From: a plasmid
DNA: 64,000 nucleotides
Direction: 5' to 3' (one strand)
Sequence record: CP071152.1
Part shown: piece by piece, positions 775 to 18,387 of the stretch
Layout of the letters: each line of letters starts with the position of its first letter
Position numbering within the stretch: the stretch's first letter is position 1
The notes under the pieces: generated by a model
What the model saw: the letters and a program-made list of their open reading frames with translations, nothing else
What the model was told of the DNA's origin: nothing
The model's database searches: none
Translations under genes and position numbers: made by a program

Positions 775-1803
775 ATGAGAACAGTCCACTTCAAACCAGA
801 CCTTTGCGCCGTCACAAATAGTCGTGACCCGATAGAACTCAAAAACTCGATTGTCCTCGTAGAAGGAAATTCAGAATATCTCATTGGTGATGATGCTAAG
901 GATTATGGTGGATCTGGTCAACGCCTCATTGGTGGGTCCATTCAAGACAAACATTATCAGCGGTATATTCAAGCGTTATTGGCCAAAGGCCTTGGCCCAG
1001 GTGACCACACCATCTCAATCGGCTTGTCGGCAGCAGCAAACTACATCGACGAGTTTCGCACAGATAAGAGCAGCAACGTATTGAATCAGGAAGATCACAA
1101 GCTGCTCGCCGGGTTAGTGGCTGAGATTAGGTTCCGTAGCGGCAGAACCGATGCGCCTATTCAACTTTGCCGTGTGAAATTAAAGCCGGAGGATGTGCCG
1201 GTACTGTACGAAACAGAAGCGGTCCGCAACGTCATACCTAATACCGCAATGACTTTTGGCATATTCCAGATTGGCGGCGGTGACTGGCAAAGTTTGCTGG
1301 TAGTCGACGGCGAAATTAAGCGTGACACTCATGCTCGCGTCGCTGGTATCAGACATTGCATTAGCAGAATGAAAGAGCAGTTCGGCCTCCAACCAGATAC
1401 CGCAGAAAAAGCTTGGCATACCGAAACAGCACCGAGCTGGGGCAAGAACCTCTACGCCAGCGAATGGGAAAGCTGCGTCGACGCCAAGAAAGAAATCGTC
1501 CAAAGCTATGTGGCAACGTATTTCCCCGAGTTGGTGAACAAGTTCCAGGGCTATCAGGACCGCATTAAAGCGATTGTCCTCAGCGGCGGTGCCGTACACG
1601 ATGCAACGTTTGTAGATGCGCTGATTGCTGAAATGCCTTCTCGCTATTCCATTTACACCATTGACCAGTTCCAAATCATGGAGCCGGATGGTTCGAAATT
1701 AATGGATCCGTCCTTTACCTGTGCGTTTGGCATACACTCTACGGGTGTTAATGTCGGCCTCGATATTGGGAACGCCTATCTCAAAGGGGTATTCGATGTC
1801 TGA
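775..1803 (+). CDS. actin-fold ATPase, ParM/StbA-like partition or segregation protein
   Basis: 342-aa ORF with RBS ggag before the ATG. Motifs QIGGGDW (phosphate-2 like) and LSGGAVHD (adenosine motif) fit the actin/Hsp70 fold. The N-terminal DxG motif is not clear. Confidence 0.45.
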   Translation: MRTVHFKPDLCAVTNSRDPIELKNSIVLVEGNSEYLIGDDAKDYGGSGQRLIGGSIQDKHYQRYIQALLAKGLGPGDHTISIGLSAAANYIDEFRTDKSSNVLNQEDHKLLAGLVAEIRFRSGRTDAPIQLCRVKLKPEDVPVLYETEAVRNVIPNTAMTFGIFQIGGGDWQSLLVVDGEIKRDTHARVAGIRHCISRMKEQFGLQPDTAEKAWHTETAPSWGKNLYASEWESCVDAKKEIVQSYVATYFPELVNKFQGYQDRIKAIVLSGGAVHDATFVDALIAEMPSRYSIYTIDQFQIMEPDGSKLMDPSFTCAFGIHSTGVNVGLDIGNAYLKGVFDV

Positions 1804-2167
1804 TTTTACCGATTCCGATCGCCGCATCCAAATAAGAGTAGCGCCTGACGCCGTAGTGAAACATCTGACGGACCCGGCGATGGGTTCGAAACTACGATTG
1901 GCACTCAACGGCAAGATTGAAATTCCGCCGGTGCTGGAATATCTGCTCAACGATGCAACAAAGTCGAAAAGGGTAATCGCCCTCTTGCAGATCATGTTCA
2001 GTTATATTGACGACTTCGAACGAAATAACCCGGAAGGATCCTCGGCCCTTGAAAAGGCCACACAAGAAGTAGCCAAGAAAGCGGAGGCTGGAAATCAGCA
2101 GAGTGGTAAGAGTTCCACCCGTAGCAGGCCGACGATGACCTCGAATGACCTTGCAAATTTCAAGTAG
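1796..2167 (+). CDS. hypothetical protein, translationally coupled to upstream ATPase
   Basis: ATG MSDFTDSDRRIQ... overlaps the upstream stop by 8 nt. A terminator follows. Confidence 0.5.
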   Translation: MSDFTDSDRRIQIRVAPDAVVKHLTDPAMGSKLRLALNGKIEIPPVLEYLLNDATKSKRVIALLQIMFSYIDDFERNNPEGSSALEKATQEVAKKAEAGNQQSGKSSTRSRPTMTSNDLANFK

Positions 2168-2191: not shown

Positions 2192-2217
2192 GAGGGGCCA
2201 ACGGGCCCCTTTTTTTC
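2192..2217 (+). terminator. rho-independent terminator
   Basis: GGGGCC-aacg-GGCCCC stem followed by TTTTTTT. Confidence 0.6.
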
Positions 2218-2326
2218 GCCTTGGCGACCCGCCATACCTTCCCCCCTCCTCACCCAAATCACTTTCCAAAACGCAAGAGTGACCTCCCTCAAGCCGCAGC
2301 AAGGTAGGGCATTAAAATCGAATTTA

Positions 2327-2855
2327 TTCACACAAATTTGTGCGAAGGATTTTTTATGATTGCTCTGATGAGGACATTTGAGACCCACCCGAAACCGCGG
2401 CAGTATTGAAAAGCGCCGAGGAATCCAAATTATTCACACAAATTTGTGTGAAGGATTTTTTAGGTATGGACTCATGTCGATTTGTGCGACCCATATGACA
2501 CCCTAAACTGTGTCGAACAGCGAAGAGGTATCCAAATTATTCACACAAACTTGTGCGAATGATTTTGCCGATCGTTCGCCAGATGCAGTTCTGACGGCTC
2601 ATCTGGCCAGAAAATTGCCCCGGGCGTGAAGTTACAAGGATGCACTACCAACTCCCCCGGTTAGCAAAAATCATCACACAAATTTGTGTGAAGAATTTGG
2701 CACTTTGGCGCATAGTAAAACGCCTTTAACTATCCTGTCGAATCAGGTATTGTTACTTGGCTGGATCGAAAACTGACCTTTGGACCGGCTTCTGGCATAC
2801 CGGGCACGCCGAAAACCAATTGCGTTTGTGTGAATAATCCAAAGTTTCACACAAA
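2327..2855. promoter_or_regulatory. array of five 20-bp palindromes TTCACACAAATTTGTGTGAA (operator or centromere-like sites)
   Basis: Copies at about 2327, 2433 (perfect), 2540, 2673 (perfect core) and a split/everted copy at 2825/2846. Spacing is about 106-133 bp. Copies 1-3 share flanks ATCCAAATTA...GGATTTTTT. Confidence 0.6.
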
Positions 2856-2883
2856 TATATTTAGGAAAATCAGGGGTAACAAA

Positions 2884-3486
2884 ATGACGGATTTTGATGA
2901 TGTCTCTGGGGCTTGTGAGGCAATCGCCATTGAGGTTCAGGGTACTGTCATGCAAACCTCGGATGCACTGTACGACCTGGCACGGGCAGTGTGTGACCGG
3001 TACTGGGCCAAGTTCCAGATGAAAAACCGTAGCCAGGCACACCTCCCGGAAGACAAGCGCCAGCTTGGGAGGTTTGCCCCTTTCGTGCGTCGGCACCCAG
3101 CAAATGGGAAAATTTACATTCGTTGGCGGAATTATCACCCGAGTCGGACTGGCGCTAGGGGGAAAAAGGTTTTTGGTGTGGACGTACCCCCATTAAAAAC
3201 TGGGCACTACCAGCCATCGCAATTTGGTCATCTGGCCCAAGTATGGGAGTTGGAGCTAATTATCAAAACTGAGCAGCAATTAGCTCAAATCCGGTCTTTG
3301 CAAGACCACCTGCACGACATGAACGTTCAATTGAAAAAATCACAGAGGAAGTACCAATGGCAACTGAACAGCAGCAGCAATCTGCCAATAAACTCAACGG
3401 CGCAGCAAATACAGGACGAAGCGGAGAAAATATCGCAGCTCGACCCGCTGCTGGAGCAGTTTCTAAACCAGCCGGGCGCTATGTGA
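2884..3486 (+). CDS. hypothetical protein (conserved mobile-element backbone-like)
   Basis: ATG MTDFDDVSG... with RBS aggggtaac. The promoter region overlaps the last palindrome. Confidence 0.5.
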   Translation: MTDFDDVSGACEAIAIEVQGTVMQTSDALYDLARAVCDRYWAKFQMKNRSQAHLPEDKRQLGRFAPFVRRHPANGKIYIRWRNYHPSRTGARGKKVFGVDVPPLKTGHYQPSQFGHLAQVWELELIIKTEQQLAQIRSLQDHLHDMNVQLKKSQRKYQWQLNSSSNLPINSTAQQIQDEAEKISQLDPLLEQFLNQPGAM

Positions 3487-4160: not shown

Positions 4161-4190
4161 TGGGGCTATTGGGGTAGCCCCATTTTTTTT
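4161..4190 (+). terminator. rho-independent terminator
   Basis: GGGGCTA-ttgggg-TAGCCCC stem followed by T8. Confidence 0.6.
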
Positions 4191-4200
4191 GAGGTGGCCC

Positions 4201-7101
4201 ATGAAGGAATTGGCATTTAAACTCGTAGCCAAATGTATTAGGTTATTTCCGAAATCGAAAAAGGTAACCCGTAGCGATCTGCTCACGGAGGTGAAAACAG
4301 TCTCCGGTAAGACGGTCGTCCCGAACGGCGTATATTATTCCCCGATGCCAATCATTGGGATCCAGCTGTTATCCATCGACGATGTTCTCGCCCCGCACGC
4401 GAAGACCATTAACGACATCGTTAAACGCTCTGGGCTATCGGACGGACACCCGCAATTCAATCCAAACAAACTTATTCACGGGGTTATTTGGCGTACCGCT
4501 GAATATGTTCATTTGCTGCCTGCCAGCGAAGACTACCACCACATCGAAGCAGGCGGACTACTGTCGCATAGCCTGGAAGTTGCGAAGACGGCGCTGGGAG
4601 CTGCCTACAACACCGACCTCCCTGCAAAGACGCATTCCGATCTTGAAACCATCCGACGCTCTCGCTATTTCTACGCCGTGTTCATCGCCGCCCTCCTCCA
4701 CGACATCGGCAAAGTCTTCATGGACGTTCGCGTATACAGCGTCGACAACGGCAACCTGATGTGGGAGCCGCGCCTGGAGTCTTTAACGGCCTGGGCGCTC
4801 AAGCACGGGGTTAACAGCTATCGGGTAGAGTACCGGCCAGGCCGAGCCAAGAGCCACGAGCGGGCCGCAAACTACGTGTTAAGCGCCGTGCTGACCAACG
4901 AAGCCAAGGAATACCTGCTCGCCTGCAAGACCGACGACATGTTCACGGAAATCGACGAGGCAATCAGCCATTACGCCGAGCGAGACAGCTACATCGCTCA
5001 AGCACTGCGACAGGGCGATAGCTACTCGACGTTGCAGGACATCAAGGGCCGCCACTCACGCGATACGGGCCGCCGCAACTACTCCCTCGCAACTCATTTC
5101 ATCCATGCCTGCCAACGCTTAACGCCGAATTGGAAGATCAACCAGCGCAGCGGGATGGTGTGGACGATTGGCGGGGATGCGTATTTGGCCTTCCCGAATG
5201 CCCTCAACACGATCATGCAGGACATCGCGGTGCATGGCGTGAAGGCACCCAAGGATGTCCATGAGGTCTACAACCTGCTCGTTGAGCAGCACATCGTAGA
5301 GGCTACCGACAGCACGACCCGTTGCTCGTTTTGGATGCCTGGGGAGTACACCACTGAGCAGGCCTTCACAGCGCAAGAGAACATCGCGATCAAGCGCGTG
5401 GGTCAAGACTGGATTGCCGTTGTAAAGCTCAAGTCCGTCCATTACGCCTTCGGATCTGGCGTGATGCCGGAGTCCAGACCTGGAGTGCTGTTGTTGAGTC
5501 GAGAAGGCAACATGCTGCACTTCGAAAAGGGCAAGCTTTACCAGCCGACTGCACACACCGCTAAGGAGATGCAGGCGAGGGTCAAGCAGCGCGAAGAGAA
5601 AGCGAAGGAGGAAGAGGCCAAGCTGGAGCGGTTGAAAGTCGAGCGTGAAGAACAAGCGATCAAGGAGGCCAGGGAGAAGGCCGAAGCGCAGGTTGCGCTG
5701 GAGCGACAGCAACGGGCGGCAGCGGCAGCCAATGAGCAGGTCGAGACACCGGCAGAACAACCCCCCATCGCTACAGAACCACCAGGAGCCCAACCCGCTA
5801 CTGCCGAATCAAGCGAAGAGGCTCAGGTGGAGGCCGAAGTGCCATGCGACCCGCGAGAGCCAACAGAAGACGACGCTATGGCCCATGGTGATGCGCAGGA
5901 GAGCGTTCTGGCTGGCGCGAGTACCAATGCAGCCACTTTGGTAGCCGATGCAGCACAGGGCGTTACAGGGGGCGAAAATGAAAGTGCCACGGTGGTGAGT
6001 GACAGTGCCGTTGAAGTCGCCAGCGTTGAAACCACCGCTGACTCTGTCGAGACGCCAGCAATCGACCAGCAACGCCAGGACACCAGCAGCGGAGTGCAGG
6101 CGGTAACACCGGGAGGCAACGCTTTTAGCGGCGGGCCAAATCGTCTCAGGAACAAGCACGTGCCGCCGGTAGCAGCTCCAGCAGTGCAACCACAACCTGA
6201 TACCACAAGCGAAAGCCGTCAGCAGCCCAACTCACCGCAATGGTCAATGTCAAAACGGCAGAGACGTTTAACGGAGGCACAGACCGCACCAGCACCACAT
6301 CAGGCTCCCGAATCTGTACGTGATGAAGCTCAGTCGAACACAGGCGAAACGGAAAAAGCGACAGCATGGATCGAGTGGGTGGGCAACCAGCGCGGTGAGG
6401 GGAAGGTACTCTACCACCAGGTAGAGGGCGCAACGTATCTTCGTCTTACGCCGTTGAGCCAGCAGTTGATGCAAAGCCCGGATGCCGTACTGCAAACGTT
6501 GAATCTGGCCGGGACGCTGGCACGGTCTCAAGACAAGGCAGGCTTGCCCGTCGTCGTCCAGCACGAGGTAGCCGAAGGGGTGTTTGAAGCGCACTGCAAG
6601 TTGAGTGCAAGCGGAGAAGCGATTCTCAATAAATCAACTGGGAAAGTGTGGGGTGGCGACGAGTTTAAGGGCGTGTTCTGGCGCTCAGAGCGAGACGCAG
6701 AACGTGCGAGAAAGACCGAAACCCCGCTTACCGAGATGGATGCCTCGACTCCTGACACCGCAACGGCCATGCCTACCCAGCAAGAGGGGGATCCGGCCCC
6801 TCAACAGTTGGATACCCATGACCACGAGCAGATAAACCTTGAGGCACTGGGTTCGGCATTAGACTCCTCGAACCATCGCTTATCTGAAATCCTTCGCGTT
6901 CATGACGTTCTCAAACACAGGAAAACCCATCGAGACAACAAAAAGGCCACTGTGATCCTTGACGACAACTCCACAGCATACGAAGCAGCGTTTTTTGAGG
7001 CCTGTGCCGATGGTGTCGTTTCCTGCCACATGAAGGAACTCAAAAGCTTCCAACGAAAAATCGAGGGCACCTTGTACTACGTTGTTCCGCCAGAGTTTTA
7101 A
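4201..7101 (+). CDS. traI: HD-domain (MOBH-family) conjugative relaxase, TraI-like
   Basis: RBS gaggtgg before ATG MKELAFKL. HD-hydrolase signature ...FIAALLHDIGK in the N-terminal 400 aa. About 450 aa of low-complexity tail follows (E/K coiled coil, then Q/A/T/S/P-rich). Confidence 0.65.
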   Translation: MKELAFKLVAKCIRLFPKSKKVTRSDLLTEVKTVSGKTVVPNGVYYSPMPIIGIQLLSIDDVLAPHAKTINDIVKRSGLSDGHPQFNPNKLIHGVIWRTAEYVHLLPASEDYHHIEAGGLLSHSLEVAKTALGAAYNTDLPAKTHSDLETIRRSRYFYAVFIAALLHDIGKVFMDVRVYSVDNGNLMWEPRLESLTAWALKHGVNSYRVEYRPGRAKSHERAANYVLSAVLTNEAKEYLLACKTDDMFTEIDEAISHYAERDSYIAQALRQGDSYSTLQDIKGRHSRDTGRRNYSLATHFIHACQRLTPNWKINQRSGMVWTIGGDAYLAFPNALNTIMQDIAVHGVKAPKDVHEVYNLLVEQHIVEATDSTTRCSFWMPGEYTTEQAFTAQENIAIKRVGQDWIAVVKLKSVHYAFGSGVMPESRPGVLLLSREGNMLHFEKGKLYQPTAHTAKEMQARVKQREEKAKEEEAKLERLKVEREEQAIKEAREKAEAQVALERQQRAAAAANEQVETPAEQPPIATEPPGAQPATAESSEEAQVEAEVPCDPREPTEDDAMAHGDAQESVLAGASTNAATLVADAAQGVTGGENESATVVSDSAVEVASVETTADSVETPAIDQQRQDTSSGVQAVTPGGNAFSGGPNRLRNKHVPPVAAPAVQPQPDTTSESRQQPNSPQWSMSKRQRRLTEAQTAPAPHQAPESVRDEAQSNTGETEKATAWIEWVGNQRGEGKVLYHQVEGATYLRLTPLSQQLMQSPDAVLQTLNLAGTLARSQDKAGLPVVVQHEVAEGVFEAHCKLSASGEAILNKSTGKVWGGDEFKGVFWRSERDAERARKTETPLTEMDASTPDTATAMPTQQEGDPAPQQLDTHDHEQINLEALGSALDSSNHRLSEILRVHDVLKHRKTHRDNKKATVILDDNSTAYEAAFFEACADGVVSCHMKELKSFQRKIEGTLYYVVPPEF

Positions 7102-7211
7102 TCAATTACCCACAGATTCCGGCATGAGTTGTCCAGCGTTTCTGTGGATAACATTCCACCACCTACCAACCAACTACAGGGCCCCTGACGGGGCCTTGTG
7201 CATTGTGGCGC

Positions 7212-7373
7212 GAGCCACGCGGCCAACGGACGCGCATCAGTGCTGGCGAGTCTCCGAGCCACGCGGCCAACGGACGCGCATCAGTGCTGGCGAGTCTCCG
7301 AGCCACGCGGCCAACGGACGCGCATCAGTGTTGGCGAGTCTCCGAGCCACGCGGCCAACGGACGCGCATCAGT
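7212..7373. repeat. 3.7 copies of a 44-bp tandem repeat (GAGCCACGCGGCCAACGGACGCGCATCAGTGCTGGCGAGTCTCC)
   Basis: Direct tandem copies read from the sequence, immediately 3' of the relaxase gene. Confidence 0.85.
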
Positions 7374-13367: not shown

Positions 13368-13717
13368 AAAGTTATTCCCCCCAACTAGGGATACATCGTA
13401 GAGGCTTCCAAGTTGTAATTTCCATTGAATGCCCCTCTTTCCGGGGCTTTTCTTGACCTTAATCATCGAGAAGCTACTCCATAATTAAACATTTCATGTA
13501 GGGACAATGTGACGATAGATTGTAGTGTAAGCAGGGCAAGCAGCTGGCTTTCCATGAAAGCTGAGTAGCTTGAGCAGAGGGGGCAAAATGCTGATGTTCG
13601 AGGAAGCTGAACTACACCGACGGTGTGCATTCTCGTCCAATAGACTACTGATGTGGCTTGCCACCTTTTTAAAGTTGTGACCACTTGATTACGTTACTTG
13701 GGGAGATAGGTGATGGA

Positions 13718-15118
13718 ATGTTCGTAACTGTCAAAGCCCGTGTTTATACCGATGTCACGGGTGCCTACACTGAGCTCCCCGCCTTGCTGACGCCGGCGGG
13801 AGTGCTGGAGTCGTTGCTTGACTACTGCCTCTATCGCAGCCACGACCGCAGTCTCACCTGGATGTCGAAGGTGAGCCGCTCTGTGCGGATGTTTCTTGAA
13901 TATCTCCAGACCAACCCTGCCGAGCGTGATACCTACCACCTGTTCCAGAATTTCGCTCAGCGGCTCTACTCCGGCACCTTCGACCGTGAGATAGGGCTCG
14001 ACCCCAGCGGGCTCTGCTGGGCGCCGCGGTCGCCGCAGGACGCCTCACACATCATCACCCACCTATCCGACTTCTTCGACTGGTTGGGCGAAATGCGTCC
14101 CGCATCGGCACAGGTCAATCCGCGCTACGCCGGTGGAGCTTTCGACCGGCAAACCGATGAAGCTGCCTACCAGTATCGGCGCAGCAAAGCGTTCTTAGGA
14201 CATACCTGGGCGGCCAATGCGTCACCGAGCCAGACCAGGCATCGAATTAGAGGGCGGCGTCTGCCTAAGGTTGAACGCGGCGAGCCGCCAGCCTTTCCGG
14301 AGGCGCGTTTCGAGGAGCTCCTGGTTAAGGGATTCTGTGCTGCCGGACGCCAGGATTATCGGGGCATGCTTATCACCTTGTTATTGCACGGAGCTGGCTT
14401 CCGAGAGTCGGAGCCTTTCCACCTGTACATTCAGGATGTGTTGCCTGACCCTGCCAACCCAAATCAGGCCCTGGTTCGCATCCACCATCCAAGTCATGGT
14501 GCTGCGCCAGCTGATTGGCGTGACGCGCAAGGACGCCCCCGCAAGGGCAATCGGGCGGAGTACCTCTCCCAGCAGTTTGGTCTGGCCCCTCGCACAGATC
14601 TTCTAGACCGTCGTCATGCTGGCTGGAAAGGCGGCATGCATGATGGGGCCTATTACAAGCAGGCGTACTGGCTCCTGCCGGAGTATGGCGAGTGGTTTCT
14701 ACAGCTGTGGCACCGCTATCTGGAGCAGGTGGCTCGCAGTGAACGCGGCCATCCCTTTGCTTTCATCAATCTCGTCCGCGAGCCTGTCGGTGCCATGTGC
14801 ACACTCAACCAGTACAACAAGGCCCATGCAGCTGCCTGCGAACGTATCGGCCTCACGGTGAGCAAAGCTCTGGGTACAACGCCGCATGGCCACCGCCACG
14901 CCTACGGTCGCCGACTCATGAACGCCGGTATCGACAAGGCTCTTATCCGTCGCTTTATGCATCACGCCTCCCTGGATAGTCAGGAGGTCTACACGCAAGC
15001 GAATAGCCGCGAGGCCTTGGCTGCATTGGATGTGGCTGCGCAGCGGCTACGAGGCGCGAAGGTGGGAGCTGCCGCTACGCCGAGCCTGTTGCCCGCGGAC
15101 ATCTTATTGAATGACTGA
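13718..15118 (+). CDS. tyrosine recombinase, GmtY-like (first of a recombinase trio)
   Basis: C-terminal HGHRHAYGRRL...IRRFMHHASLDSQEVYTQ gives the H-x-x-R...H...Y catalytic pattern of tyrosine recombinases. Confidence 0.65.
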   Translation: MFVTVKARVYTDVTGAYTELPALLTPAGVLESLLDYCLYRSHDRSLTWMSKVSRSVRMFLEYLQTNPAERDTYHLFQNFAQRLYSGTFDREIGLDPSGLCWAPRSPQDASHIITHLSDFFDWLGEMRPASAQVNPRYAGGAFDRQTDEAAYQYRRSKAFLGHTWAANASPSQTRHRIRGRRLPKVERGEPPAFPEARFEELLVKGFCAAGRQDYRGMLITLLLHGAGFRESEPFHLYIQDVLPDPANPNQALVRIHHPSHGAAPADWRDAQGRPRKGNRAEYLSQQFGLAPRTDLLDRRHAGWKGGMHDGAYYKQAYWLLPEYGEWFLQLWHRYLEQVARSERGHPFAFINLVREPVGAMCTLNQYNKAHAAACERIGLTVSKALGTTPHGHRHAYGRRLMNAGIDKALIRRFMHHASLDSQEVYTQANSREALAALDVAAQRLRGAKVGAAATPSLLPADILLND

Positions 15119-15127
15119 GGATTTGCC

Positions 15128-17725
15128 ATGCCCAATAAGAAGAAAACAACTGCGGCCAGTGTATCTACGCGCCCTGTAACAAGGAAACCAGGGGTAAAGC
15201 GCGTCACGGACACATCCCTCGGCTGGGTTTCACGGGAATATCCGCAGCTCGAACCCTGGCGCATCCTTGCGATGGAGTGGCTAAAAGGGGAAACTCGCGG
15301 GGTCAGTTCGAGACTGCAAGCTCTATCGTCCTTTTTCGAGCGCTACCTTATCCAGCAGAGCCTACCGCTTGACCCGGCAGTGCTGCTGACGCGCGGCACG
15401 GTTCTGCCGGACTATTACCAGACCGCCTGCCCAGATTCGAGGGCTGGCATCACGTACAACAACTGCATCAACTCCTTCCTGCACTTTGTGCTGCTACGTG
15501 AGTTCAGTGTGCCCGGTGATGACGGTCAGCCGGTCATTTCGCAGGCCTTCCGGAACCCAGTGCTCTGGATGTCTAAGGGCGGCTTGCCTTGGCGCGACGA
15601 GAGCGTGCATTCGCCACTACCCTACGGCTACATTGATGAACTGCGCCAGATGTTGGCGGCGGGACCACACTTCCGGGACTGGTTGTGGGCACAAAACGCA
15701 TTGGGTGCAGAAATTGGTCAGCGGGGACCCGGCGCTCCTGACTGGTTCGAGGTAACCGAAGCGCAGATTGACCGGAACGACCCGGATTGCGTCTGGCGTG
15801 AACGCCCAATGCGGAACGGGGCGCGCCTGGAAATGTGGAGCCCGGTGCGCTGGGTCGCACTACTGGTGAAGCTCATACTGCCACTGCGTACTTCTCAGGT
15901 CCGCATGCTCGACTCAGGCGAGGCGGATACCTGGCGCTACGCAGACGGCGTGTGGGCATTGAACCCAAGCCGAATCGCACACGGTAGTGAGCGGCGCCCA
16001 CTACACCAGGGGGTGTTTCGCCGTAGCGCCGCTCTGGCTGATGGCGAGGCGGTTTCGACTGTGCTCTACATCAACACTAACAAGACCGCCGATATCACCA
16101 AGTCAGGCCCCGAGAAAGGCTATGTCCTACCTTGGTCCTCCGGCGGCCCGGCGCATCAGGATGTGTTCTACTGGCTGGAAAAACAGCGTAACTGGCAGGA
16201 AAAATACAATCCGGTATCGCGGCGTACATCTTGGTCTTCACTGGATGGACGCCACATCCAGGCGAAGAGCGAGGTGCAACTCGCAAGCTATCCGGATACT
16301 TGCTTCCTGTTCCGATCGCCGGAAGCCCGTGAGGGTGAACGTTATTTCCCACTTTCGGATAAAGTAATGTTCTCCAGTTGGTTTGCCCTGCTGGAAGCAC
16401 TGGAATGGCGGCTAGCTGACCGAGGTGAGACTCATCGCAATGGCACGAAAATCCGCTTCCTTCCACCGCAAGAAGAGCGGCTCAGCTATCAAAGAACTCT
16501 CTTCCCCTTACACAGTCTGCGCGTCTCCCTCGTCACCGCGCTGGCCCTAGAAGGCCAAGTGCCGTTCCCTATCCTACAAAAGCTCGTCGGACACAGCCGC
16601 CTATTGATGACGCTGTACTACACCAAGCCCGGTGCAACACACATCCGCGACGTATTGCTCGGCGCTGCGGAACGGTTGGAGGCGGCCAAGGAAGAGGGCA
16701 TTCAGACCTTCCTGCTAGACACCGAGTATGGGGTGCTCCTCGAACAGGCTATTTGTAACAGTGTGCCATCTCTGGCTGCCGCTATTCCGCAACATCCCGC
16801 TGCACGTAACCCCGTGGGCTGGATGCCGATGCACCACGGTCTGTGCCTGGTCGGTGGCAACACCAGCGAAGGGGGAGACAATGGAGCTGTGGGCGGCTGC
16901 TACAACGGGGGCGCAATTATTATCAAGAGCACGACAAATGTTAACGCCAAATACGGGCCTGTCCCTGGCGGCAGTCGCAACTGTGTACGCTGTCGTTGGT
17001 TCGTAACTGCTCCGCAGCACCTACCAGCCTTGGCGGCCCACTTCAACACGCTGGCCTACCACTTCGACGAGACGCGCAACGCCTGCCTTGCCCGAGAAAA
17101 CGACCTCCAGGCCCTGAAAAAGGACAGGGCTGAAGCAGAAGCGGCTGGCCAGTCATTCACCCGGCTAGATGCTGTCAGGCAAGCAGAGCGGCTTTGGGAG
17201 AGCACCATGAGGCGCTTTAGTGATTCGGCGGAAGACCTGGTTGCCTGCTGGCGGCTCATCGAGCGCTGCAAGGCTCTACTCGAATCGCGCACTGGCGACA
17301 GCACGCAATTGGTGGCGGCTGGCACGTTATGCGATGTGCAGGCCGTCTTCGAGGAAACCGAGTCGGAGCTTCTGCAACTGGCTGGTGTCTGTGAGAGCGT
17401 CGAACTCTATCCAGACCTAGAGCCAGGCAAGGCGGTGTTTCGACGCAGCCAGTTGCTGGATACCGTCCTCTACCGCGACAAGTTGCCTCCTGTGTTCATG
17501 CTGCTGAGCGAACAGGAACAACTCCTCGCTGGTAACGCCTTTATGCGCCACCTAGCGCAGCAGATGAACCCGTCGAATCCGGCGATCGGCCAACGTGAAG
17601 TTATTCGTCTGATGGATGCCGGTGAGCGTCTCAGTGCATACCTAGATCTCAACCTTGCAGCGCAGTTGCCTACATCCCGTCACACCGCCGCGTTCCGGTC
17701 CGGGCCGACCCTGAAATGGAATTAA
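15128..17725 (+). CDS. large tyrosine-recombinase-domain protein, GmtZ-like
   Basis: 865 aa. ...LHSLRVSLVTALALEG...LVGHSRLLMTLYYTK (HxLR...GH...Y). RBS tgagga. It sits 9 nt after the first recombinase. Confidence 0.6.
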   Translation: MPNKKKTTAASVSTRPVTRKPGVKRVTDTSLGWVSREYPQLEPWRILAMEWLKGETRGVSSRLQALSSFFERYLIQQSLPLDPAVLLTRGTVLPDYYQTACPDSRAGITYNNCINSFLHFVLLREFSVPGDDGQPVISQAFRNPVLWMSKGGLPWRDESVHSPLPYGYIDELRQMLAAGPHFRDWLWAQNALGAEIGQRGPGAPDWFEVTEAQIDRNDPDCVWRERPMRNGARLEMWSPVRWVALLVKLILPLRTSQVRMLDSGEADTWRYADGVWALNPSRIAHGSERRPLHQGVFRRSAALADGEAVSTVLYINTNKTADITKSGPEKGYVLPWSSGGPAHQDVFYWLEKQRNWQEKYNPVSRRTSWSSLDGRHIQAKSEVQLASYPDTCFLFRSPEAREGERYFPLSDKVMFSSWFALLEALEWRLADRGETHRNGTKIRFLPPQEERLSYQRTLFPLHSLRVSLVTALALEGQVPFPILQKLVGHSRLLMTLYYTKPGATHIRDVLLGAAERLEAAKEEGIQTFLLDTEYGVLLEQAICNSVPSLAAAIPQHPAARNPVGWMPMHHGLCLVGGNTSEGGDNGAVGGCYNGGAIIIKSTTNVNAKYGPVPGGSRNCVRCRWFVTAPQHLPALAAHFNTLAYHFDETRNACLARENDLQALKKDRAEAEAAGQSFTRLDAVRQAERLWESTMRRFSDSAEDLVACWRLIERCKALLESRTGDSTQLVAAGTLCDVQAVFEETESELLQLAGVCESVELYPDLEPGKAVFRRSQLLDTVLYRDKLPPVFMLLSEQEQLLAGNAFMRHLAQQMNPSNPAIGQREVIRLMDAGERLSAYLDLNLAAQLPTSRHTAAFRSGPTLKWN

Positions 17726-17727
17726 TC

Positions 17728-18387
17728 ATGAGTAAAACAACAGATATTCACCCTGACGTCGTGTTGGAGTCGCTGCTTGCCAAGGCTGAGCGCTCGAACC
17801 GTCGAAACAACCTCATCAAGATGCATGAACTGTGTCGCAAGCAGCACGAGGTTGGGTCGCGTGACTTCTCCGTGTCAACCATCGGCCGTCTGGCTGAGGC
17901 CGATGGCATCATGAAAGGCCGTGCGCTCTACAACACCCAATCCGCCGACTACAAGGCTCTCATAGAGGTCTGGGCTGCTTACGCAGGTCCACCTGCCCCC
18001 AAGCCCACCAAGACGCTGGCCAGCCACGACTACCTGATGCGCATCGATGATCCGGCCATTCGTTCTATCATGCAGGCCATCGTCACAGAGCGTGACAAAC
18101 TCAAGGCGCAGCTCAACACCCTCAAGGCACACACACTGGTGAACGTGGACCGGCGGCCGTTAGGGGCAACTGTCACGTCCGCGACTGGCACGCCGGTGGT
18201 TGTGCTTAAATTGTCCGCACAACTGACTCCATCTGAACGCGAGGCACTACAGAAAGCGGTGTCAGCAGACTACCTCGAAGATCGGGGTTTGAAGGAAGGC
18301 AGCCACGGTGAAATCGTTAACGAGCGCGGTCGCACAATATTCGAGGTTGGCTTTGCTTGGGCAATTCGCAAGGTGTTGGGTGACTGA
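17728..18387 (+). CDS. small third protein of the recombinase trio (GmtX-like)
   Basis: ATG overlaps the upstream stop (TAATCATG). About 220 aa with no recognisable catalytic motif. Its size and position fit GMT or Tn554 TnpC-like accessory proteins. Confidence 0.45.
   Translation: MSKTTDIHPDVVLESLLAKAERSNRRNNLIKMHELCRKQHEVGSRDFSVSTIGRLAEADGIMKGRALYNTQSADYKALIEVWAAYAGPPAPKPTKTLASHDYLMRIDDPAIRSIMQAIVTERDKLKAQLNTLKAHTLVNVDRRPLGATVTSATGTPVVVLKLSAQLTPSEREALQKAVSADYLEDRGLKEGSHGEIVNERGRTIFEVGFAWAIRKVLGD

What the first reader, a model, noticed from the sequence alone, without database searches (positions are those of the whole stretch)
2318..2866. Array of five 20-bp perfect palindromes (TTCACACAAATTTGTGTGAA) between the actin-like ATPase operon and the next operon
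Five copies are spaced about 106-133 bp apart. Three share extended flanks (ATCCAAATTA...GGATTTTTT). The last copy is split and everted, overlapping the promoter of gene 2884. The repeated, evenly spaced perfect palindromes resemble a centromere (parC/parS-type) or a cooperative operator array. Placement next to a ParM-like ATPase makes a type II partition site plausible, although such sites usually lie upstream of parM.
Basis: seen in the sequence. Interest (0 to 1): 0.55.

Follow-up and report, generated by a model that had tools for sequence, protein, structure and literature searches.

The report
Transfer-origin repeat array upstream of mobI
The repeated palindromes sit directly in front of the plasmid's conjugation genes mobI and traI, and most likely form the docking region where DNA transfer starts rather than a partition centromere: an ordinary kind of element, though uncharacterised in this Aeromonas plasmid family.

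Summary
The repeats are real and far above chance, but the finding overstates them. Only one copy is a perfect 20-mer (2433-2452). Three have 1-2 mismatches (2327, 2540, 2673). The fifth is two everted half-sites (2825-2834 and 2846-2855).

The window is an Aeromonas ~241-kb MOBH plasmid, 99.7% identical to pMCR5_045096. "Gene 2884" is MobI (Pfam E 3.7e-21). A conserved 261-aa gene and the MobH/TraI relaxase follow it.

In IncA/C and SXT/R391 elements, oriT abuts the 5' end of mobI, and IncC MobI binds it (ChIP-exo). Five further lineages (MobI 30-48% identical) keep the same layout: an everted inverted repeat just before the mobI start, plus 2-3 upstream sites. The half-site drifts between lineages. 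R27 and pIron_OXY carry unrelated inverted-repeat arrays upstream of their mobI, with no ParM gene within the ~3 kb examined.

Best reading (about 0.6): an oriT and relaxosome-assembly array of MobI half-sites. MobI binding, nicking and transfer were not tested.

The neighbouring gene does fold like ParM, so a centromere role is not excluded (about 0.15). Against it, the array lies downstream of a terminator and is widely spaced.

Single orphan copies occur on seven small Aeromonas plasmids. Six have no predicted relaxase.

Verdict: new member of a known kind, moderate-to-low interest.

The parts
775..1803 (+). Actin-fold (ParM-like) ATPase gene, 342 aa. It neighbours the array and is probably not its direct partner.
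   Evidence: No Pfam, NCBIfam or PDB sequence hit. The AF2 model has pLDDT 86.5. Foldseek top hits are Ta0583, pSK41 ParM, Alp12 and R1 ParM, E 3e-13 to 4e-10, TM 0.5-0.63.
1796..2167 (+). Small 123-aa ORF overlapping the ParM-like stop codon. It is a candidate ParR/SrpR-like adaptor, but its fold is not established.
   Evidence: No family hit. The AF2 model is unusable, pLDDT 49.6. Homologues occupy the same position in L007, L032 and L035, and a diverged ORF does so in L033.
2194..2216 (+). Intrinsic terminator of the ParM-like operon: GGGGCC-AACG-GGCCCC followed by T7. It separates that operon from the array.
   Evidence: Read directly from the sequence.
2327..2346 (.). Site 1: TTCACACAAATTTGTGCGAA, 1 mismatch from the palindrome.
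2433..2452 (.). Site 2: TTCACACAAATTTGTGTGAA, the only perfect palindrome. The extended unit is CAAATTA...GGATT.
2540..2559 (.). Site 3: TTCACACAAACTTGTGCGAA, 2 mismatches.
2673..2692 (.). Site 4: ATCACACAAATTTGTGTGAA, 1 mismatch. Its asymmetric flanks are inverted relative to sites 1-3.
   Evidence: (pair I1: 35-nt arms, 89% complementary).
2825..2855 (.). Site 5: everted inverted repeat, TTTGTGTGAA-N11-TTCACACAAA, ending 29 bp before the mobI ATG. It is the proposed core of oriT and the mobI promoter/operator.
   Evidence: pair I15. The predicted ssDNA hairpin is -8.0 kcal/mol, z -3.5. Position and structure are conserved in five other lineages.
2884..3486 (+). mobI: the oriT-recognition adaptor of MOBH1 relaxases.
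   Evidence: Pfam PF19456 MobI, E 3.7e-21, 75.8 bits against a cut-off of 26.6. Annotated as MobI(A/C) in pMCR5_045096.
3357..4142 (+). Conserved 261-aa gene of unknown function between mobI and traI. A gene sits in the same position in R27 and pIron_OXY.
   Evidence: tblastn gives 28-45% identity in L007, L032, L033 and L035, and a weak hit in pIron_OXY (19.5% identity, E 1e-6). There was no hit in R27, where only the position is shared. Gene order.
4189..7101 (+). traI/mobH: MOBH-family relaxase. The start annotated in the near-identical plasmid maps to about 4201.
   Evidence: Pfam TraI_2, E 7.3e-39. NCBIfam MobH, 249 bits against a cut-off of 200.

Best explanation
The array is the cis-acting transfer-origin (oriT) and relaxosome-assembly region of a MobI-dependent MOBH conjugative plasmid.

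Proposed mechanism (inferred, not shown here):
1. The ~10-bp half-site TTTGTGTGAA is the recognition element of the MobI adaptor, possibly together with the conserved 261-aa neighbour.
2. MobI multimers occupy the palindromes and the mobI-proximal everted repeat.
3. Bound MobI recruits the TraI/MobH relaxase, which nicks nearby to start single-strand transfer.
4. The innermost, everted site also overlaps the mobI start region, so the same binding probably autoregulates mobI-traI.
5. The distal palindromes are auxiliary sites that arose by tandem duplication of a ~106-bp unit and vary in number.

Shown here: the sites exist, are clustered and are non-random. They abut mobI-traI. Their architecture is conserved while the half-site sequence drifts across lineages.

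Not tested here: MobI binding, nicking and transfer.
For: 1. Gene 2884 is MobI, and a MobH relaxase follows it. The near-identical plasmid carries F-type T4SS genes and traD.

2. Literature. In IncA/C plasmids oriT lies immediately upstream of mobI, overlaps its promoters, is AT-rich and holds multiple inverted and direct repeats (PMC5587640). In SXT/R391 oriT is next to mobI, and the centromere srpC is next to srpM (PMC4489591). IncC MobI self-associates, gives a single ChIP-exo peak over oriT-mobI and recruits TraI. [quoted passage not shown]

3. Five further lineages with MobI 30-48% identical keep the same layout: an everted inverted repeat with 9-12-bp arms and an 8-11-nt spacer, ending 20-35 bp before the mobI start, plus 2-3 upstream sites with the same half-site. 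The lineages are L007 (pAeme3), L026/L032, L033, L035 and L040/L041. The half-site drifts: TTTGTGTGAA, CTTGTGTG(G)AA, CTTGTTTGTGA, CTTGTGTATGA.

4. R27 (IncHI1) and pIron_OXY have arrays of 3-4 unrelated inverted repeats at 42-56-bp spacing upstream of their mobI, with no ParM gene within the ~3 kb examined. pRA1 (IncA) has at least 6 copies of AGATTCCA/TGGAATCT, in both orientations, next to mobI.

5. The array region is 38-47% GC against 48-60% in the flanks.

6. The motif occurs nowhere else in about 225 kb of the plasmid. It was not found in any Aeromonas species representative genome. This argues for a local cis site rather than a global or host operator.

7. Copy number varies: L025 lacks one 106-bp unit. 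That fits redundant auxiliary sites.
Against: No binding, nicking or transfer data exist for this family.

The near-identical pMCR5_045096 gave no transconjugants in repeated matings (PMC6548960). The system may therefore be defective, repressed or condition-dependent.

The array spans about 540 bp with 106-152-bp spacing. That is far more extended than the ~150-bp IncC oriT.

Head-to-head sites (10 bp centre to centre) and the everted site (21 bp) cannot be bound identically by one rigid dimer.

An actin-like ATPase and a small ORF lie immediately upstream. No convincing alternative centromere repeat was found upstream of the ParM-like gene in any lineage.

The orphan copies on small plasmids contain only the palindrome and lack the everted repeat.
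Confidence: 0.6

Rival explanations
1. Type II (ParMRC-like) centromere. The 123-aa product binds the palindromes and links them to filaments of the actin-like ATPase to segregate the plasmid. This might be in addition to a transfer role.
For: The upstream gene has a ParM-type fold. It is followed by an overlapping small ORF, as in parMR and srpMR. Linkage of a ParM module to oriT-mobI is also seen in SXT/R391 (PMC4489591) and in pRA1. No clear repeat array exists upstream of the ParM-like gene in any lineage, so the centromere is otherwise unassigned. The array and the ParM-like pair co-occur in every lineage that has mobI.
Against: The array is downstream of the operon and beyond a terminator. 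Spacing is 106-152 bp, unlike known parC sites. The innermost site sits on the mobI start in all lineages. R27 and pIron_OXY have mobI-linked arrays with no ParM gene within the ~3 kb examined. pRA1 has separate motifs beside parM and beside mobI. pMC64A keeps an intact ParM-like pair but has no array. The fold of the 123-aa protein could not be established.
Confidence: 0.15
2. Purely transcriptional operator array. A repressor, either MobI itself or another plasmid factor, binds cooperatively, perhaps by looping, to control mobI-traI, and has no role in nicking.
For: The everted site lies 29 bp upstream of the mobI ATG, over a -10-like TATATT. The sites are palindromic and the first three are about 10 helical turns apart.
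Against: Four extra sites up to 550 bp upstream, with variable number and spacing across lineages, are more than an operator needs. In the characterised relatives the same position is oriT (PMC5587640, PMC13635750). mobI of IncC is constitutively expressed (PMC13635750).
Confidence: 0.1
3. Recombination or attachment sites for a tyrosine recombinase: 7-13-bp inverted arms around a 6-bp AAATTT spacer, used for multimer resolution or as integration hot spots.
For: On seven small Aeromonas plasmids a single copy lies about 500 bp upstream of an operon encoding a two-HTH 140-aa protein and a tyrosine recombinase. In Aero21 p1 homology ends 11 bp after site 1 and an integrase gene follows. One 106-bp unit is deleted in L025.
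Against: No homologue of the small-plasmid recombinase or of its partner is found in about 225 kb of the large plasmid. Five directly repeated resolution sites would be unstable. In relatives the left arms are degenerate, whereas a single half-site is what is conserved. The L025 deletion is equally explained by homologous recombination between repeats.
Confidence: 0.07
4. Weak bidirectional intrinsic terminators: A/T-rich hairpins followed by T-runs.
For: The consensus scan flags 2433-2452 on the + strand and 2691-2674 on the - strand as terminator-like.
Against: The stems have only 3 G-C pairs. A strong terminator already lies at 2194-2216. Relatives keep the half-sites without T-runs and in the everted arrangement.
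Confidence: 0.03

Closest known systems
oriT-mobI locus of IncA/C plasmids (R55, pVCR94, pRA1)
   Same: The repeat-rich, AT-rich region lies directly 5' of mobI and overlaps its promoter. A short motif is reiterated in both orientations (PMC5587640). MobI is the oriT-binding adaptor for a MOBH relaxase (PMC13635750). A ParM-type module is adjacent.
   Different: There is no sequence similarity. The IncC oriT spans about 150 bp with 14-bp direct repeats, whereas this array spans about 540 bp with 20-bp palindromes 106-152 bp apart. In A/C plasmids the parM module is divergent from mobI and traI is distant. Here the parM-like genes are co-directional with mobI, and traI follows mobI.
srpC-oriT intergenic region of SXT/R391 ICEs
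   Same: An actin-like partition module (srpMR) and oriT-mobI share one neighbourhood. A small basic protein (SrpR) binds 13-bp repeats (PMC4489591).
   Different: In SXT the centromere lies upstream of srpM and is distinct from oriT. Here no repeat set is evident upstream of the ParM-like gene, and the only array is on the mobI side.
Tra1 region of IncHI1 plasmid R27 (traH/mobI, 240-aa ORF, traI)
   Same: The gene order mobI, then a ~240-260-aa ORF, then the MOBH relaxase is identical. An array of four inverted repeats lies upstream of mobI.
   Different: The R27 repeats (CATAGGGTCACTTTT-N3-9-AAAAGTGGCCCTATG) are unrelated in sequence and spaced 42-44 bp apart. No ParM-like gene lies within the ~3 kb examined.
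Orphan oriT mimics (MGIs mobilised by SXT/R391; pWBG749-type oriT mimics in Staphylococcus)
   Same: Short cis sites resembling a conjugative element's oriT occur on replicons with no predicted relaxase. Here that applies to six of the seven small plasmids carrying single palindrome copies. See also PMC13635750, PMC4652767.
   Different: Mobilisation of these small Aeromonas plasmids is untested. They carry only the palindrome and not the mobI-proximal everted repeat.

Membership tests
oriT of MobI-dependent MOBH1 conjugative elements | Lies immediately 5' of a mobI gene | tested here: met
   The array spans 2327-2855 and the mobI ATG is at 2884. MobI Pfam E 3.7e-21.
oriT of MobI-dependent MOBH1 conjugative elements | The element encodes a MOBH (TraI_2/HD) relaxase and a conjugative T4SS with a coupling protein | tested here: met
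   TraI_2 E 7.3e-39 and NCBIfam MobH 249 bits. TraF/H/G/C/V/K/E, TrbI and TraD are annotated in the 99.7%-identical plasmid.
oriT of MobI-dependent MOBH1 conjugative elements | AT-rich region with multiple inverted and direct repeats | tested here: met
   GC is 38-47% against 48-60% in the flanks. There are five sites, with 0 expected by chance.
oriT of MobI-dependent MOBH1 conjugative elements | Architecture conserved with mobI in diverged relatives | tested here: met
   Five other lineages keep the everted repeat at the mobI start plus upstream sites.
oriT of MobI-dependent MOBH1 conjugative elements | Bound by MobI, nicked by TraI and sufficient in cis for transfer | not testable with these tools
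   Needs EMSA or ChIP, nic mapping and mobilisation assays. pMCR5_045096 did not conjugate in the one published attempt (PMC6548960).
Type II partition centromere (parC/srpC) | Adjacent actin-like ParM ATPase | tested here: met
   The AF2 model has pLDDT 86.5. Foldseek hits to ParM, Alp and Ta0583 have E down to 3e-13.
Type II partition centromere (parC/srpC) | ParR-type DNA-binding adaptor encoded downstream of parM | tested here: inconclusive
   A 123-aa ORF is present and positionally conserved. It has no family hit, and its model has pLDDT 49.6.
Type II partition centromere (parC/srpC) | Closely packed repeats upstream of parM that overlap the parMR promoter | tested here: not met
   The array is downstream of the small ORF and of a terminator, with 106-152-bp spacing. 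No array lies upstream of the ParM-like gene in six lineages.
Type II partition centromere (parC/srpC) | The site travels with parMR independently of the transfer genes | tested here: not met
   pMC64A has an intact ParM-like gene and small ORF but no array or mobI nearby. R27 and pIron_OXY have mobI-linked arrays with no ParM gene within the ~3 kb examined. This is weak evidence, because an IS insertion could have removed the array.
Tyrosine-recombinase core site | Inverted arms around a 6-8-bp spacer, with a cognate recombinase encoded nearby | tested here: inconclusive
   The sequence form is compatible. A recombinase lies nearby only on the small plasmids. No homologue is found on the large plasmid.

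The most novel reading that the evidence does not exclude
The array may be a dual-purpose hub. On this reading the same half-sites serve as oriT for MobI/TraI and as the centromere for an unusual actin-like segregation ATPase. Single orphan copies on small ColE2-type Aeromonas plasmids with no predicted relaxase would let them hitch-hike on the megaplasmid in trans, for transfer or for partition.
Probability: 0.12. Interest if true: 0.6.

Novelty: new member of a known kind. Interest (0 to 1): 0.35.

Why it matters
These ~240-kb Aeromonas plasmids carry mcr-5, carbapenemase-era integrons and many other resistance genes, and their transfer biology is uncharacterised.

Locating the probable oriT and its recognition motif gives three things:
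- a concrete probe for testing whether the plasmids transfer, and under what conditions;
- a way to ask whether small plasmids that carry the same palindrome and have no predicted relaxase are mobilised by them;
- a natural series of co-varying MobI proteins and half-sites for working out how MobI adaptors read DNA, which is still unknown for MOBH relaxosomes.

Tried and rejected
- Host global-regulator site. An exact scan of one genome per species for TTCACACAWATWTGTGTGAA gave only 10 scattered hits in Firmicutes and Bacteroidota and none in Aeromonas. The motif is also absent from the rest of the plasmid. The CRP-like TGTGA/TCACA spacing does not fit.
- Known RNA family. Rfam gave nothing relevant.
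- Plain tandem repeat. TRF did not call the array. The units are only about 77% identical.
- Centromere upstream of the ParM-like gene. No conserved repeat array was found in six lineages.
- Structure of the 123-aa protein. The model was too poor to use.
- Wider sampling. The protein database and metagenome scans returned few relatives: 4 MobI hits and 4 loci. The first alignment was too divergent for the locus scan.
- R27 oriT paper (PMC134963) and the R55 record. Neither is held.
- A shared trans factor between the small and large plasmids. The only shared protein is an 80-aa "RepB", found 110 kb from the array. This was not pursued.
- Covariation counting on the MAFFT alignment of the everted repeat. 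It was abandoned because a 1-bp arm-length difference shifts the register. The arms are compared by eye instead.

Full report
**Observation**

A search for TTCACACAAATTTGTGTGAA allowing 3 mismatches finds four sites in the 64-kb window. All lie between 2327 and 2692, and none appear in 100 shuffles.

Only 2433-2452 is a perfect palindrome. Sites 2327, 2540 and 2673 carry 1, 2 and 1 mismatches. The fifth "copy" is two perfect half-sites in everted order, 2825-2834 and 2846-2855, separated by 11 nt.

Start-to-start spacing is 106, 107, 133 and 152 bp.

The conserved unit is longer than 20 bp and asymmetric: CAAATTN-palindrome-GGATT. Copies 1-3 share one orientation and copy 4 is flipped. Copies 1-3 sit in ~106-bp duplicated units that are about 77% identical.

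The motif is absent from the rest of the window and from about 225 kb of the near-identical plasmid.

**Context**

The window is 99.7% identical to Aeromonas hydrophila plasmid pMCR5_045096 (241 kb, MOBH).

"Gene 2884" is MobI (PF19456, E 3.7e-21). It is followed by a conserved 261-aa ORF and by the MobH/TraI_2 relaxase. This is the same order as traH(mobI)-ORF-traI in IncHI1 plasmid R27.

Upstream, 775-1803 has no sequence-family hit. It nevertheless folds as an actin/ParM-like ATPase: pLDDT 86.5, with Foldseek hits to Ta0583, pSK41 ParM, Alp12 and R1 ParM at E 1e-13 to 1e-10.

The overlapping 123-aa ORF could not be classified.

A strong terminator at 2194-2216 separates that operon from the array.

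**What is known for this position**

In IncA/C plasmids oriT lies immediately upstream of mobI, overlaps its promoters, is AT-rich and is packed with inverted and direct repeats (PMC5587640).

In SXT/R391 the srpM-mobI intergenic region holds the centromere srpC next to srpM and oriT next to mobI (PMC4489591).

MobI of IncC self-associates and gives a single ChIP-exo peak over oriT-mobI. It recruits TraI through a C-terminal domain. [quoted passage not shown]

**Comparative evidence gathered here**

Relatives with MobI only 30-48% identical all keep the same plan. These are pAeme3 (L007), L026/L032, L033, L035 and L040/L041.

- Each has an everted inverted repeat with 9-12-bp arms and an 8-11-nt spacer, ending roughly 20-35 bp before the mobI start.
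- Each has two or three further sites carrying the same half-site upstream, 60-183 bp apart.
- The half-site drifts between lineages: TTTGTGTGAA, CTTGTGTG(G)AA, CTTGTTTGTGA, CTTGTGTATGA. Both arms of the everted repeat change together.
- In four of the six lineages the predicted ssDNA hairpin is clearly more stable than shuffles; it is weaker in L035 and not significant in pAeme3.

A variant contig (L025) lacks exactly one 106-bp unit, so copy number is polymorphic.

Independent MobI plasmids show the same principle with unrelated sequences. R27 has four inverted repeats at 42-44-bp spacing upstream of mobI. pIron_OXY has three at 45-56-bp spacing. Neither has a ParM gene within the ~3 kb examined.

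In IncA plasmid pRA1 a ParM/StbA gene lies divergent from mobI. The intergenic region has TTTTTGATTG repeats on the parM side and at least six AGATTCCA/TGGAATCT copies on the mobI side. This suggests that each protein has its own array beside its own gene.

pMC64A retains the ParM-like gene and the small ORF but has neither mobI nor an array nearby.

No repeat array is evident upstream of the ParM-like gene in any lineage. The centromere of that system, if it is one, therefore remains unassigned.

**Interpretation**

The best-supported reading, at about 0.6, is that the array is the oriT and relaxosome-assembly region. The half-site would be the recognition element of MobI, possibly together with the 261-aa partner.

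On this reading the mobI-proximal everted repeat is the core, and probably also an autoregulatory operator. The distal palindromes are auxiliary sites created by duplication.

Binding, nicking and transfer are inferred and were not tested. The only published mating attempt with pMCR5_045096 failed (PMC6548960). That weakens any claim of present-day activity, but it does not say what the sequence is.

The centromere reading (about 0.15) keeps some weight. The ParM-like fold is real, and ParM modules are recurrently linked to oriT-mobI in this superfamily. Position, spacing and the comparative data all argue against it.

An operator-only role, a recombination-site role and a terminator role are each less likely. 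Their evidence is given under the rival explanations.

**Orphan copies**

The same 32-34-bp unit, with centre AAATAT, occurs once on seven small Aeromonas plasmids of 7-51 kb. Six have no predicted relaxase, and pMC64B is typed MOBV. The replication protein checked (p5_SCLZS52) is ColE2-type, and its protein accession recurs in a second of these plasmids.

In each of the five plasmids examined, the copy lies about 500 bp upstream of an operon encoding a two-HTH protein and a tyrosine recombinase. The flanks have diverged while the site is preserved.

No homologue of those two proteins is found on the large plasmid.

Two of the small plasmids co-reside with megaplasmids that carry the ParM-like gene but lack the array.

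These copies may be oriT mimics, recombination sites or something else. This is the most interesting loose end.

**Verdict**

The most likely function, however, is conjugative transfer initiation. This is a new member of a known kind, of moderate-to-low interest.

Noticed in passing
window 7211-7373: A near-perfect tandem repeat of 44 bp x 3.7 copies (99% matches) lies just downstream of traI. The region is unannotated in the related plasmid.
   Followed up: no
window 775-1803 (residues 329-338): The ParM-like protein has an invariant C-terminal LDIGNxYLKG motif. It resembles the actin-fold phosphate-1 loop, which normally sits at the N terminus. The N terminus here lacks a DxG motif, so the protein may be a circularly permuted actin-like ATPase.
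   Followed up: partly
L003 613-632, L004 548-567, L005 8008-8027, L006 6008-6027, L024 4096-4115: Single orphan copies of the extended palindrome (centre AAATAT) occur on seven small Aeromonas plasmids, and their flanks have diverged. Six have no predicted relaxase, and pMC64B (L024) is typed MOBV. In each of the five plasmids examined, the copy lies about 500 bp upstream of an operon encoding a two-HTH 140-aa protein and a tyrosine recombinase.
   Followed up: partly
L023 6160-6420 (Aero21 p1): Homology to the window ends 11 bp after palindrome 1. A 399-aa site-specific integrase gene starts 175 bp later. The rest of the array and mobI are missing from that record.
   Followed up: partly
L025 100-200: A metagenomic variant of the locus lacks exactly one 106-bp repeat unit, with copy 1 fused to the flank of copy 2. 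The number of palindromes is therefore polymorphic.
   Followed up: yes
L043 2110-2464 plus L042 1-160 (pRA1, IncA): A ParM/StbA gene and a small ORF lie divergent from mobI. TTTTTGATTG repeats lie next to parM, and at least six AGATTCCA/TGGAATCT copies lie next to mobI.
   Followed up: partly
L010 13771-14016 (pMCR5_045096) and L003 3178-3420: An 80-aa protein annotated as RepB is 88.6% identical between the two. It has a weak NCBIfam ParC hit. It is the only protein shared between the small palindrome-bearing plasmids and the large plasmid.
   Followed up: no
L003 731-789: A 26-bp inverted repeat, 96% complementary with a 7-nt loop, lies about 100 bp from the orphan palindrome on the small plasmid.
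   Followed up: no
window 13685-18387: An island encoding the gamma-mobile-trio recombinase GmtY, a VPA1269-family protein and GmtX is annotated in the near-identical plasmid. It sits about 10 kb downstream of traI.
   Followed up: no
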